Positions 12,522 to 53,900 of a stretch of DNA of 64,000 nucleotides are shown here, one piece after another; position 1 is the stretch's first letter; every line of letters begins with the position of its first letter. The notes beneath the pieces are model-generated. The model did no database searches. It was given only the letters and a program-made list of their open reading frames with translations, and was not told the origin of the DNA. The stretch is from Mytilus trossulus (lineage: Eukaryota). Position numbers and translations under genes: made by a program. The stretch lies in assembly GCF_036588685.1 (NCBI RefSeq), contig NC_086375.1, positions 44,020,001 through 44,084,000 of the forward strand. The letters are read 5' to 3'.

Positions 12522-12712
12522 TTTTATCCCAGGCATAGATAACCTTAGCCGTATTTGGCACAACTTTTTGGACTTTTGGATCCTCAATGCTCTTCAACTT
12601 TTTACTTGTTTGGCTTTATAAATATTTTGATATGAGCGTCACTGCTGAGTCTTATGTAGACGAAACGCGCGTCTGGCGTACTAAATTATAATCCTGGTAC
12701 CTTTGATAACTG
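12522..12712 (+). mobile_element. 5'-truncated hammerhead-ribozyme-bearing retro-element insertion (Penelope-like/retrozyme type)
   Basis: 191-bp insert flanked by TTATGT duplication (12516-12521 / 12713-12718), absent at the paralogous site near 3725. Contains an HHR motif at 12634-12680 with core CTGCTGA (A-to-C change). Confidence 0.8.
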
Positions 12713-14732
12713 TTATGTCTAAAATAATGAAATCCTTGTGATAAGTAATATGCAACATATTGATTGGTTTTGCAGGAAATTAAACAATGTGTATAGCTTG
12801 TGGTGCTCACTTTCGCCGTAATTTCCATGTTTTCTGTAGTTTATGGTCAGGTCTTTATGTTGGTATTTTTAAGTATACTGATATAACTATATGAAGCTAA
12901 CATCAATAGCAAATATTTTTTAGCTTGAAAACGTGTTTCTTTGAAAAAAATCATCTGAAAAATTAGAGTAAAGACTGTTTGAAATTTCCTGATGTCTTGT
13001 CAAAGGGGGATACATATGACATGATCAAACAAACTTGTTTATCTGGTTGTCTTTTTTTGTTAAATTGAAATGTGAGCATTTCAAATATTTAATGAATTTC
13101 ATAATACTCATTAACTTCTTGTATGAAAAACTATTAAACAAATGTTAGTAGAATTTCTAAATTGTATATATTGCTGTGTATATCATTCCTTGCTTTTAAG
13201 TGTGTGTAATCTAGATAAAAATGTTCTCTGAAAGTGTTTTTGTTCAATGAGTGCCGAAAAAAGTAAAATAACAAAAAATACTGAATTCTAAGGAAAATTC
13301 AAAACGAAAAGTCAATATTAAAACTGCTTGGAAAATATCTATCATATTCCTGACTTAGTACATATATTTCCTTCTGTAGAAAACAATGAATTAAACCTCT
13401 TTTTATAGCTAGATAAATCTCTCACTTAGTATTGTATGATAGTGACATATAATTGTATCATATGGACAACAAAAGATGGACAAAAGATACCAGAGGAACA
13501 TTCATTGCGTGAGCAAAACAAACAGACGTTATAGATATTTAAAAAAAAGAGTAAAATTGGAGTACAGCAGTTAACACCATGCTTTAATCTAAATCTCTAT
13601 AAAACAAATAAAATTGAAACACAATTGCATATAGACAATCAATGGGCAAAATTCATAGGCAAAATGTAAGACAGGAGTATAAACAAATTACCTAAAAAGG
13701 ATTTAACAGGTCAAAATTAAAAATATACAAATACAATAAACATGACCATGACTATAACACCTAAGTAAGCTGATAAACAACGGCAGTACCTATAATCTAT
13801 ACTCCAAGATCATTTCATACGATTTCAAAAGTCCATTCAGTTACAATTCTAAATTACATATTTTCCATCGAGTACGAATATGTTTATTTTAAAAACATAA
13901 ATTGAAAAAAAAAATCGAACCAAGAATGTTTTCACATTCCACAATAACTGGCCCCTATCAATACTAAAGTTTCTACAGTAAGTAATATGCGAATAATATT
14001 TAATTTTTGATTATTTAAAGGATTGTCTGGTTCTTTTTTAATTCTAATTAGCATTTAAATCGTTGAAAGAAACAAATTTTGTATGAAGCATGGAAGCTCT
14101 TTACACAGAGAATGCGTGTCCTTTGACAAATACATAAAGGTACATTAAAGGAACATTCAATTCTTATTTTACACGTCCTTGCTATTACCTTGGCGTTAGA
14201 TTTTAGTTATTTGTATGCTGCCGAGGCGTTGTTGAAATCTTGTCATGAAGAAATAATGCATTTTATTGAAAAATTACGTAATATTTAAATGCATTGAATT
14301 TGTGATGGTTGTCTGGCAGTCAAGTTATGATTCTGATGAAGCATCCTTGTGATCTTATTTTTCGGTTTTCAAAATATGTTAATATACTTACAAAGTAGGT
14401 TTCCTAAAAAAAAAGATTTATTTGTGTACTAAATTATTGCCTAACACAACTTCGATTATTTTTTTAAGAAATTATGAAAGTAAATGATTTTCAAAAAGGT
14501 AGTTTGCTCATTGTTTAAGGCCTTACAGTAACTGATCCTTATCTGCAACTACCCCTATAGTTTAAACTAAAAGCAGTTTAGTTCAGTCTTAATTATTTTA
14601 TTACTGTGGATTAATTTATTTTCTTGGATACAAATGTTCGATGATTGAGGAAAAATTGTAATAGCATGGCAATTTGATTTCGTGGCCAAGTTAAGCATAA
14701 TAGTTATCAAAGGTACCAGGATTATTATTTAG

Positions 14733-50900: not shown

Positions 50901-53900
50901 ATTAGAGTTAACATGCAGTTAAAAAACTGCATTAGCAGTTAAAAAACTGCATTAAAAAATAAATGAGGAATGTGTCCATAGGGACGCAGATGATGCCCCA
51001 GATGGCATATAACGTTATAAAGGGACATAAATCAAGAACTGTAAAAGTGAAGCTGCCAAAATTTGAACTTAAATGGAGTTAAGTGATAAAAAGCATTATA
51101 TATTCATTTCATTAAAATCAAGTTGAGACAAAGTTACGATAGAGAACGGAAACTGCAATTTTTCCATTTGTAAAGGGGCATAACCCTAGAAAGGTAATCA
51201 AAGTGCTTGTAAGCACTGAATGGTAAAGATTGTTTTAATTTTTTAGTCAGATATATTGAATTTTCGTTGTATAATGCATTGGTTGTAGTTGATTCAACTA
51301 CCATTCTGGACAAAGAAAGATAACTCCAATTTTCAAAGAAGATTTTAAGAATGACATAATTTATATTTTCAGAACAGCTATTTTACTTTTGTAAAAAAGG
51401 CATTACTCTTGAACTGTAAAAGTGATGCCAACAAAATTCAAACTTGACCTGTATTTTGTGGTAATATGCATTGTGTATCAGTCTTAAAACATTTGGTTGA
51501 GGCAAACTAAAGTTAGAGTACAGACAGACGAACAAGGGTAAAAATTAATGTCCCCTCCGCTACAGCGGGGGCATAAAAATAATAAAAATCTGAAATATTT
51601 TCGAATTCTGTATACTTTGCCTTAAAATGAATATGTATAATCAATAATTCATTTCAAACTTTCTAACTTGATCAATTTGTTTGACTAACAACTTTACTTA
51701 CTTTTGCTGTACTATAATCTACTATTCTCTCCATTTCCAAATCTCCTTTGTTTCCCATCAGTATTGTTTTGCTATTTGGATTAGCATAGCTCTCAACTTC
51801 TTTGACCCATTTTGGCACATTATCAAAAGATTTCTATAAAAAGAAGAAAATACTATAAAAGTCATCTATAACAAGAATGTGTCCATAGTACATGGATGCC
51901 TCATCTGCACTATCATTTTCTATGTTCATTGGACCATGAAATGGGGGTAAAAACCCTAATTTGGCATCAAAATTAGAAAGATCATATCATAGGGAATATG
52001 TGTTACAGAGTACTGAGTTTCAAGTTGATTGGACTTCAACTTCATCAAAAACTACCTCAACCAAAAAACTTAAACCTGAAGCAGGACAGACAGATGGTAC
52101 AACGACAAATGGACGCACAGACCAGAAAACACAATGCCCATAAATGGAGCATTAGAATAAATTAAACAGTAAAGCATAAACATAATGTACAAACCTGATT
52201 TGTTATGTCATAGATAATAGCCACACCGTTAGCCCCTCTGTAATAACTAAACATAATGTACAAACCTGATTTGTTATGTCATAGATTATATTATAGCCAC
52301 ACCGTTAGCCCCTCTGTAATAACTAAACATAATGTACAAACCTGATTTGTTATGTCATAGATTATAGCCACACCATTAGCTCCTCTGTAATAACTAAACA
52401 TAATGTACAAACCTAATTTGTTATGTCATAGATTATAGCCACACCATTAGCTCCTCTGTAATAACTAAACATAATGTACAAACCTGATTTGTTATGTCAT
52501 AGATTATAGCCACACCATTAGCTCCTCTGTAATAACTAAACATAATGTACAAACCTGATTTGTTATGTCATAGATTATAGCCACACCGTTAGCCCCTCTG
52601 TAATAACTAAACATAATGTACAAACCTGATTTGTTATGTCATAGATTATAGCCACACCGTTAGCTCCTCTGTAATAACTGGTTGTTATACTTCTAAATCT
52701 TTCAGCACCTGCAGTGTCCCACTGTCAAAACAGTTTATTAAAACGTATATATATAGTCTCAAATTCTCTTCAACTTGAATTTAAATATTTGAAGCTAAGT
52801 ATTGTGTATATGCAGTTTTTATCCTGTTAATTAATATTTGTTTGTTTGTTACTGAAAACTATTAGAAAGATTTAGACTTAAATATGATCACTGTGTTTGT
52901 ATTAACCAAGGACTAAATGAATACATTTGTACTTGATTTTGTTCTATAAGGCGTTCTCATTCTGCTTGGTGTAATTTGATTGTGACTTCATTATTCAAAC
53001 ACTGTTGTGATTCAGTTATGTATATAAAAAAAGAAAATGTGGTATAATTGCAAATTAGACAAGTCTTCAAGAAGGACCAAATGGTACATAAAATTAAAAA
53101 CTACAGGTCACAGTACGACCTTCAATAATGAGCAAAATCTTTTGGTATAGATTAAAGAGCACAGAAATAAAATTGTGGAAGATTGAGAGATGATAACAAT
53201 AAAAATCATGTTATTTGGTCTAGACTATTGTTTATACTTACAAGCTGCAACTTAATAACTCTTCCTTCTACGTTTATGGTGCGTATTTTCTAGAATTGAA
53301 TAATATACTAGTAATAGGGTTATTGCATGAATATTTGGGAATATTGTTCTGAGTAGAATTTTACATTGCACAAGCATGCAAGAGCTTGCGAATATAATAT
53401 TTGAAAGTAAAAATTGGTTTAAACTAAGATTTCGTGGTTGATGATGTCATGAGTTTTTAAGATTTATTGCACGCTAACTTTTGGTTACTTTCTGTGGGAA
53501 ATATTATACTGCTATGCAATATATACCCAACAATGTAATATATAACTATAAAAAAGGATATTTAATAAATAACTATTCAATTTTGATGGTGCATATTTTC
53601 CAGAAATGAATTACATAAGTATTGAATGATATAAAAGGATATTTAATATATAACTATTCAATTTGATGCAATTCAACATTTGGTCTTGTTTTGGCTTTAT
53701 AACTATTTTTATATGAGAGTCCCTAATGAGTATGTAGATGAAACGTGTGTCTGGCATACTAAATTATAATCCTGGAACCTTTGATAACTATTGATACAAT
53801 TCAACATTGATCAATTTCAAGCTTTTTAAAACATCTAGACTGAAATTTCTAAATAATTAAAAATTTACAAAATAGGTTACTTTACTAGTTTGTAAGAAAT

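What the first reader, a model, noticed from the sequence alone, without database searches (positions are those of the whole stretch)
12522..53792. Six dispersed copies of a 5'-truncated retro-element carrying a minimal type-I hammerhead ribozyme
Seen: copies at 12522(+), 14700(-), 21076(-), 43585(-), 48297(-) and 53680(+), plus a tail-only fragment at ~9880, contain gcgtca-CTGATGA-gtct..agac-GAAA-cgcgcg-TC-tggcgt or decayed versions. The better-preserved copies share the same 3' end (...cctttgataact) ~38 nt past the predicted cleavage site and differ in 5' length (~90-250 bp). Established: CUGANGA/GAAA/NUH is the hammerhead core, and minimal type-I HHRs with a palindromic stem-III loop occur in Penelope-like elements and metazoan retrozymes, where they cleave as dimers. 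Inference: a very abundant (about one per 10 kb here) non-autonomous ribozyme retro-element that no ORF track would reveal, with several copies inside introns.
Basis: partly seen in the sequence, partly recalled or inferred. Interest (0 to 1): 0.75.

Follow-up and report, generated by a model that had tools for sequence, protein, structure and literature searches.

The report
Mussel retrozyme riding Naiad retrotransposons
These are dead, truncated copies of a known self-cutting circular-RNA repeat of mussels, and they appear to reveal which retrotransposon copies it: the repeat carries the same RNA hairpin as Naiad elements, and both are inserted starting right at the foot of that hairpin.

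Summary
The six copies and the tail fragment are real, and an eighth decayed copy was missed. They are 5'-truncated insertions of a 350-375 bp tandem repeat with a canonical (not minimal) type I hammerhead: very probably the published mussel non-LTR retrozyme (PMC7229834). One 24-mer occurs 18,202 times in the genome. Only 2 of 6 window copies keep the catalytic core, and none keeps the hairpin described next, so all are probably dead. New here: insertions end not at the cleavage site but 5-9 nt before a conserved GC-rich hairpin, in three subfamilies (32 of 44 pieces in an unbiased 570 kb). The same hairpin, with three compensatory pairs, opens the genome's Naiad Penelope-like element, whose own insertions end at the same offset (22 of 29, none beyond). 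5' ends pile neither at the cleavage site nor at the hairpin foot, and strand-specific RNA runs through both. Best reading: Naiad protein binds the hairpin and starts reverse transcription internally on circular or uncleaved retrozyme RNA. Six literature searches found the Penelope link proposed, but not this partner or signal. Binding and priming are inferred, not shown.

The parts
9880..9904 (+). Tail-only insertion (25 nt, subfamily A), 8-bp target-site duplication overlapping its 5' edge
12522..12712 (+). Subfamily A copy, 191 bp, unit positions about +200 to +39; hammerhead 12636-12679 with A6 changed; predicted cleavage after 12673
12516..12521 (+). 5' copy of a 6-bp target-site duplication (3' copy 12713-12718)
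   Evidence: alignment with the paralogous empty site
3725..3730 (+). Empty (pre-insertion) site of the 12522 copy in the paralogous segment; the 6 bp occur once
14701..14791 (-). Subfamily A copy, 91 bp, intact hammerhead core (14734-14778), predicted cleavage after 14740; absent from the paralogous segment near 5900-6000, junction there not clean
21077..21336 (-). Subfamily A copy, 260 bp, longest in the window (starts at unit position +123); helix II 3' arm and G12 deleted; 5-bp duplication
   Evidence: (as L001)
43586..43708 (-). Subfamily A copy, 123 bp, core intact (43619-43662) but helix I weakened; predicted cleavage after 43625
44824..44893 (+).
48290..48490 (-). Subfamily B copy, about 200 bp, decayed ribozyme
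53681..53790 (+). Subfamily A copy, 110 bp, decayed ribozyme, flanked by an 18-19 bp duplication with one mismatch (read by eye); antisense in an intron of a Rab-family gene
17013..17354 (-). 3' end fragment of a Naiad Penelope-like element (candidate partner family), ending at Naiad unit position 4359, just before the shared hairpin
4286..4516 (-). 3' end fragment of a Naiad element, ending at unit position 4360
20436..20921 (+). 3' end fragment of a Naiad element, ending at unit position 4367

Best explanation
The window holds eight dead, 5'-truncated insertions of a mussel non-LTR retrozyme. SHOWN HERE: full units are 350-375 bp head-to-tail repeats with a canonical type I hammerhead; insertions have a fixed 3' end, ragged 5' ends and short target-site duplications; the fixed end lies 5-9 nt before a conserved hairpin that also opens the Naiad Penelope-like element, whose insertions end at the same offset; the whole unit is transcribed, mostly on one strand, head to tail. 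FROM THE LITERATURE: mussel retrozyme arrays are cut to monomers by the ribozyme and ligated to circles (PMC7229834); a Penelope-like protein nicks AT-rich DNA and starts reverse transcription internally at a stem-loop, needing RNA 3' of the start (PMC11167929). INFERRED: the Naiad protein (N-terminal GIY-YIG, C-terminal RT) binds the hairpin on retrozyme RNA, nicks AT-rich DNA, primes on 1-3 U at unit position +39 to +43, copies the tail and then the ribozyme, and goes round the circle (or along an uncleaved multimer) until it falls off. Early fall-off gives copies like those in the window, which lack the hairpin and cannot move again; late fall-off gives arrays of non-integer length that are the new source loci. 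The ribozyme serves to make the circles, not to define the insertion end.
For: Arrays of period 353-355, 18,202 exact 24-mer matches and 0 for the reversed control. Unbiased sample (58 of 60 requested 10-kb stretches existed; the array locus L110 left out, 570 kb): of 52 pieces, 44 reach upstream of the tail, and of these 32 end within -16..+2 of the stem, 6 read through, 6 end earlier. Distance cleavage site to stem differs (A 48, B 54, C 40 nt) but ends track the stem. A profile built from 16 retrozyme rows only hits the 5' start of two Naiad loci at E 2e-5 to 4e-5 in 687 kb, nothing better than E 3 in 4 PLE loci with C-terminal endonuclease, nothing in the reversed control; a whole-unit profile aligns the full hairpin at E 1.6e-5. 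Outer stem: 3 of 6 pairs change on both sides between retrozyme and Naiad, 97% of cells paired against 27-52% for slid controls. Naiad 3' pieces in the sample: 22 of 29 end at 4350-4368, none passes 4380; the stem starts at 4367. The motif stands at or near the start of 11 published Naiad consensus records from bivalves, hemichordates and one other host (PMC8557442 supplement, search hits read by eye). 5' ends at the cleavage site: 23 against 64 and 52 at control offsets; at the hairpin foot: 66 against 72. Target-site duplications: mean 4.0 nt against 3.05 for shuffled pairs (maximum 3.47 in 1000), 36% at least 5 bp against 9% (55 of 70 insertions kept); one confirmed by an empty site. RNA-seq: 5,829 of 8.7 M and 6,571 of 8.3 M reads, head-to-tail joints, no start or end pile, strand excess 689 to 691 and 804 to 812 across the insertion end.
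Against: No biochemical test of binding or priming. The three compensatory pairs are one evolutionary comparison (2 Naiad rows of one family). This genome's Naiad carries a 21-24 nt insert in the hairpin that the retrozyme lacks, so the true partner may be another Naiad family that was not retrieved. Only 7 loci of 150 scored GIY-YIG matches were examined, with 500-800 nt upstream of the four other PLE frames. 31 of 72 control hits share a 7-nt context that replaces the 5' arm of the inner stem; unexplained. Neither the hammerhead nor the circular monomer folds better than shuffles (z -0.3 to 0.9; z -1.4), and the active fold is 3-12 kcal/mol above the minimum. Short reads cannot tell circles from uncleaved multimers. 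The two stranded runs are from one study, of a coded organism whose identity with the window's species is not known, and the sense call assumes the usual library orientation. Identity with the published M. galloprovincialis element rests on size, ribozyme type and host, not on a sequence comparison (supplement unreadable).
Confidence: 0.72

Rival explanations
1. The shared hairpin is the 5' end (promoter or transcript start) of both elements, and the fixed 3' end is just the end of a unit-length linear transcript primed at its U-rich 3' end; no internal initiation.
For: Published Naiad consensus sequences begin at the hairpin; both elements end in T-rich runs; strand-specific depth dips by about a third around the cleavage site and hairpin.
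Against: No excess of genomic 5' ends at the hairpin foot (66 against 72; about 42 against 41 after removing repeated variant contexts by eye); 17 of 17 insertions longer than one unit have scattered 5' ends; no start or end pile in RNA reads and unchanged strand excess across the site; compensatory pairing points to an RNA structure.
Confidence: 0.12
2. The retrozyme descends from a Naiad 5' end but is now mobilised by another enzyme, such as a hammerhead-bearing PLE with C-terminal endonuclease, or a LINE.
For: At least four such PLE families with long open frames exist, one with a minimal hammerhead after its frame (L180); Naiads lack hammerheads (PMC8557442); in Xenopus retrozymes match the pLTRs of other PLEs (bioRxiv 2026.07.22.740005).
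Against: The hairpin is kept in three subfamilies that are about 70-80% alike elsewhere; same end offset as Naiad; no hairpin match in the 4 other PLE loci; no poly(A) tails.
Confidence: 0.11
3. The template is the linear self-cleaved monomer, so insertion boundaries are set by the ribozyme.
For: Some inserts start exactly at the cleavage site (23 genome-wide pattern hits; L087).
Against: 3' ends are 33-48 nt past the cleavage site and copies read through it; 5' ends at the site are fewer than at control offsets.
Confidence: 0.02
4. A DNA-level satellite spread by recombination or extrachromosomal circles, with the ribozyme incidental.
For: Arrays of 50 or more units exist and may expand by unequal exchange; the L110 array carries a core change in all 7 units seen.
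Against: One-sided truncation, fixed 3' end, target-site duplications and an empty site; one compensatory change in each hammerhead helix between subfamilies.
Confidence: 0.03

Closest known systems
Mytilus galloprovincialis non-LTR retrozyme (Cervera and de la Pena 2020, PMC7229834; abstract to discussion read, supplement unreadable)
   Same: Type I hammerhead in 350-390 bp low-GC tandem repeats (here 350-375 bp, GC 39%), several related ribozyme families, mussel host (inferred here from 14 chromosome-size contigs, 1.3 Gb and a Naiad start matching the published Mytilus records), abundant RNA. Very probably the same element.
   Different: The paper counts about 5,000 ribozymes in two families in an older assembly (here 18,202 for one 24-mer shared by A and B, and 5,029 for C); in the parts read it does not describe the fixed 3' end, the hairpin or a partner, only that PLEs are strong candidates. 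No sequence comparison was possible.
Naiad clade of Penelope-like elements (Craig et al. 2021, PMC8557442; sections 5-6, passages, supplement search hits)
   Same: 5' truncation, tandem insertion, shared 5' hairpin motif, same insertion-end offset.
   Different: Naiads are autonomous and lack hammerheads; the main text has no hit for 'hairpin' and names no non-autonomous Naiad partner in the passages seen; the Mytilus Naiad has an insert in the hairpin.
Poseidon PLE of Anolis carolinensis (Frangieh et al. 2024, PMC11167929; main text parts 1-2 of 4 read)
   Same: Internal start of reverse transcription downstream of a hammerhead at an AC-rich stem-loop, AT-rich target, ribozyme cleavage not needed for insertion, genomic ends mark the start site.
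   Different: Autonomous element with C-terminal endonuclease; start site inside the ORF; linear template in vitro.
Xenopus retrozymes as non-autonomous PLE derivatives (Li, Clavereau, Pollet, bioRxiv 10.64898/2026.07.22.740005; parts 1-3 of 5 read, through the discussion)
   Same: Retrozyme sequence related to PLE termini; proposed mobilisation by PLEs.
   Different: Vertebrate focus, no mussel, Naiad found only in a coral, no cis signal, insertion ends or initiation site analysed.

Membership tests
Metazoan non-LTR retrozyme | Type I hammerhead in each unit of a 150-450 bp tandem repeat | tested here: met
   Periods 353-355, 360-375, 350; Rfam Hammerhead_1 33 bits per unit, gathering 34
Metazoan non-LTR retrozyme | Non-coding, GC below 50%, no LTR structure | tested here: met
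   Unit GC 0.39; no frame of 200 aa or more in the arrays; PBS and PPT were not searched for
Metazoan non-LTR retrozyme | Target-site duplications, often longer than 4 bp | tested here: met
   36% at least 5 bp against 9% null; 6 bp confirmed by an empty site
Metazoan non-LTR retrozyme | Expressed as RNA | tested here: met
   Whole unit covered, strand-biased, head-to-tail joints in 3 raw-read RNA runs of 2 studies; family-level, not these loci
Metazoan non-LTR retrozyme | Self-cleavage and circular RNA | not testable with these tools
   Shown for the published mussel element (PMC7229834); short reads cannot separate circles from multimers
Published M. galloprovincialis retrozyme family | Sequence identity to the cloned circles | not testable with these tools
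Minimal PLE-type hammerhead (min-HHR) | No helix III beyond core bases; long helix II (7-8 bp), short helix I (4-5 bp) | tested here: not met
   Helix I 6 bp, II 4 bp, III 2 bp plus tetraloop in A, B, C; definition from PMC4209133 passages
Canonical metazoan type I hammerhead | Core bases, helix I 6 bp, helix II 4 bp, helix III 1-2 bp with palindromic loop | tested here: met
   Met in array units and in 2 of 6 window copies; one two-sided change per helix between subfamilies
Canonical metazoan type I hammerhead | Loop 1-loop 2 tertiary contacts | not tested
   The paper says the mussel motifs lack most of the archetypal contact bases; a distal helix I extension folds in B, C and copy 14700
Naiad PLE (for the candidate partner L174/P0001) | N-terminal GIY-YIG, C-terminal RT | tested here: met
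   GIY-YIG at 183-273 (Pfam 30.2 bits); RT motifs at 855 and 900 (Pfam RVT_1 only E 0.03)
Naiad PLE (for the candidate partner L174/P0001) | DKA and CxC motifs, KR-rich block, 3.4-4.4 kb partial tandems, no canonical hammerhead | tested here: met
   Motifs read in the translation; 4,277-bp tandem, 100% identical over 1,524 bp; no hammerhead pattern; features from PMC8557442 section 6
Non-autonomous Naiad-dependent element | Shares the cis signal and insertion end with Naiad | tested here: met
Non-autonomous Naiad-dependent element | Is reverse-transcribed by Naiad protein | not testable with these tools
   Needs an in vitro or cell assay

The most novel reading that the evidence does not exclude
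Naiad Penelope-like elements across invertebrate phyla carry an undescribed structured RNA at their 5' end that sets the start of reverse transcription, and the mussel retrozyme is a viroid-sized circular RNA built from two modules, a hammerhead for circle formation and a borrowed Naiad hairpin for priming, so that a ribozyme-free retrotransposon rolls round a ribozyme-bearing circle. The hairpin plus any cargo would be enough for target-primed insertion.
Probability: 0.55. Interest if true: 0.78.

Novelty: new member of a known kind. Interest (0 to 1): 0.6.

Why it matters
The element itself is very probably already published, and the eight window copies are inert. What matters is that their common end points to the enzyme and the RNA signal that mobilise an animal circular RNA. 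Which RT copies animal retrozymes and how a circle without a 3' end is primed were left open in the 2020 paper and in the 2026 preprint. Here both get a concrete, testable answer: a named protein, a 60-nt hairpin with predicted compensatory mutants, and a predicted start position. It would also give the Naiad clade, whose mechanism is unstudied in the papers seen, its first cis element.

Tried and rejected
Core pattern alone is not above chance. Free folding gave no support for the hammerhead in 6 of 6 window copies or for special stability of the circle. The idea that cleaved linear monomers are the main template was tested and rejected. The idea of full-length 5' ends at the hairpin foot was tested and not supported. 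No shared hairpin in 4 PLE loci with C-terminal endonuclease. L084 was checked as a possible hammerhead-bearing Naiad: its retrozyme remnant lies 2.3 kb from a truncated RT piece with no endonuclease part between, so it is an independent old insertion. A 24-nt likeness between the Naiad 3' UTR and the retrozyme body is not significant (E 0.26, E 3.9). The run search listed no RNA holder on record; the contig run X1 may be DNA and was not used as evidence. The second empty-site check (copy 14700) showed absence in the paralog but no clean junction. Twelve further GIY-YIG loci that might hold a closer Naiad partner were not obtained, so that question stays open. In the duplication statistics 15 of 70 insertions with doubtful 5' junctions or nested structure were dropped by hand; with all 70 the result was 3.8 against 3.0 and 33% against 8%. 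Earlier findings: two look-ups, nothing.
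Full report
Observation. Rfam Hammerhead_1 finds three of them at 33.8, 32.5 and 25.8 bits against a gathering score of 34. Two of six keep the catalytic core (14700, 43585). Copy 12522 has a paralogous empty site at 3725-3730 that shows a clean insertion with a 6-bp duplication. Only copy 53680 is shown to be intronic: it lies antisense between exons of a Rab-family gene. 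Copies 48297 and 43585 lie near candidate exons of an unidentified minus-strand gene (not established).

What it is. The window lies on contig C3 of a 1.30-Gb genome with 14 chromosome-size contigs. The longest window copy finds head-to-tail repeats of 353-355 bp, up to 50 or more units, and a 24-mer across the cleavage site occurs 18,202 times. Three related subfamilies exist: A (354 bp), B (360-375 bp; window copies 48297 and 44830) and C (350 bp; 5,029 pattern hits). The ribozyme has helix I of 6 bp, helix II of 4 bp and helix III of 2 bp with a palindromic tetraloop, the canonical metazoan form as defined in PMC4209133 (passages), with one two-sided change in each helix between subfamilies. 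Size, ribozyme and host match the mussel non-LTR retrozyme of PMC7229834 (read from abstract to discussion), which cleaves as a monomer and accumulates as circles; its supplement could not be read, so identity is not shown by sequence.

Insertion anatomy. In 570 kb taken at round coordinates (58 of 60 stretches existed; the array locus L110 left out), 44 of 52 pieces reach upstream of the tail; 32 of these end within -16..+2 of the first base of a GC-rich hairpin, 6 read through and 6 end earlier. That is at least one insertion per 18 kb, about 70,000 genome-wide by extrapolation (inference). The cleavage site lies 48, 54 and 40 nt before the stem in A, B and C, yet all three end just before the stem, so the end follows the hairpin, not the ribozyme. 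Duplications are short but real: mean 4.0 against 3.05 nt in shuffled pairs, 36% against 9% at 5 bp or more (55 of 70 insertions kept), usually starting one base after the conserved end with one to three T that match the unit. 5' ends are scattered in 17 of 17 insertions longer than one unit, are not enriched at the cleavage site (23 against 64 and 52) and not at the hairpin foot (66 against 72). All window copies start at unit position +123 or later, so they lack the hairpin (+48 to +105).

RNA. Laid on one 354-nt unit, three raw-read runs gave 5,829 of 8.7 M, 6,571 of 8.3 M and 3,266 of 12.7 M reads, covering all bins, with head-to-tail joints and no place where many molecules begin or end. 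In the two stranded runs (one study) both strands lose the same depth at the insertion end, where loose ends of mixed sequence pile up at +40 to +43; this is read-through of truncated copies. The strand-specific excess is unchanged across that point (689 to 691; 804 to 812) and dips by about a third, not to zero, around the cleavage site. The element's own RNA is therefore continuous across both sites, as circles or uncleaved multimers; these reads cannot tell which. The runs carry a coded organism label that may not be the window's species.

The partner. A GIY-YIG search scored 150 of 615 candidates; 7 loci were fetched. Three are one Naiad family (N-terminal GIY-YIG, C-terminal RT, DKA and CxC motifs, a 4,277-bp tandem identical over the 1,524 bp compared) and four have a C-terminal endonuclease. 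The two Naiad loci that include the 5' start begin with the retrozyme hairpin: a profile made of retrozyme rows alone finds them at E 2e-5 to 4e-5 in 687 kb, finds nothing better than E 3 in the other four PLE loci and nothing in reversed sequence. Three of six outer-stem pairs change on both sides and stay paired (one comparison, not three independent events). Naiad insertions end where retrozyme insertions end: 22 of 29 pieces in the sample stop at unit positions 4350-4368, none passes 4380, and the stem starts at 4367. The core motif stands at or near the start of 11 published Naiad records from oysters, clams, mussels, hemichordates and one further host, several without the 21-24 nt insert of the Mytilus Naiad and thus closer to the retrozyme (PMC8557442 supplement, search hits only, compared by eye; the total number of Naiad records was not counted).

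Mechanism. A Poseidon PLE protein starts reverse transcription internally at a stem-loop downstream of its hammerhead, nicks AT-rich DNA, needs RNA 3' of the start and does not need ribozyme cleavage (PMC11167929, parts 1-2 of 4). By analogy, and from the shared hairpin and end offset, I infer that Naiad protein binds the hairpin, primes at +39..+43 and copies round the circle. Confidence that the copies are truncated retrozyme insertions is about 0.97; that Naiad machinery and hairpin-set internal initiation mobilise them, about 0.72. Against it: no assay, a single Naiad family examined, an insert in that family's hairpin, and 31 of 72 hits with an altered inner stem that were not followed up.

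Novelty. The element is very probably published. PLE mobilisation was proposed in 2020, repeated in a review (PMC7761336, passages) and supported by pLTR homology in Xenopus (bioRxiv 10.64898/2026.07.22.740005, parts 1-3 of 5). Six searches and a word search in the Naiad paper showed no report of a Naiad partner, of the hairpin or of the fixed end; subscription journals, repeat databases and two supplements were not seen. PMC6155905 was seen as passages only. Verdict: a known kind of element, inert at these loci, with a new and directly testable partner and signal; interest 0.6.

Noticed in passing
window 1061-3346, 10241-12139, 21475-22854 (+): Three paralogous segments with LRAT-domain frames (Pfam PF04970; three LRAT stretches in the first, the second frame broken into pieces); the duplication supplies the empty site.
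   Followed up: partly
window 49735-54832 (-): Rab-family GTPase gene with at least four candidate exons; a 71-bp tandem repeat of about 7 copies (52125-52750) overlaps the exon at 52578-52724.
   Followed up: partly
window 4286-4516, 4814-4875, 13339-13485, 17013-17354, 20436-20921, 25110-25234: Six 3'-region fragments of Naiad elements in the same window.
   Followed up: partly
window 25365-26333 (+), 27797-29356 (-), 40528-42183 (+): Long open frames: a BTB-domain protein, and two of 520 and 552 aa with no Pfam match.
   Followed up: no
window 6116-6221, 14936-15033, 24077-24147, 27321-27422, 29570-29947, 34176-34310, 53019-53150: Another very frequent short dispersed repeat with a shared AT-rich end; family not identified.
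   Followed up: no
L110:7821-10000: Subfamily C array in which all 7 ribozymes seen carry G at core position 6 instead of A; genome-wide the listed C hits have the normal core.
   Followed up: partly
L179:4000-6550: A more diverged retrozyme-like tandem of longer period with altered core bases next to a Naiad.
   Followed up: no
G000, 31 dispersed places listed: Retrozyme hairpin core preceded by one shared 7-nt context in place of the inner stem's 5' arm: a variant subfamily or a fragment captured by another element.
   Followed up: no
L180 (G000:C6:3425300-3430000, - strand): PLE with C-terminal endonuclease and a minimal-type hammerhead about 110 nt after its stop codon, unlike the retrozyme ribozyme.
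   Followed up: partly
L071:418-705; L176:1680-2021: Retrozyme copies with an inverted 5' part, an arrangement described for PLE insertions.
   Followed up: no
L049 (G000:C1:162096-165119): Telomere-like hexamer repeats abut the 5' end of a retrozyme array near the start of contig C1.
   Followed up: no
window 46110-46931, 55980-56446, 7543-7696, 32414-33404: Long inverted repeats and a 30-bp minisatellite, probably foldback or MITE-like DNA elements.
   Followed up: no
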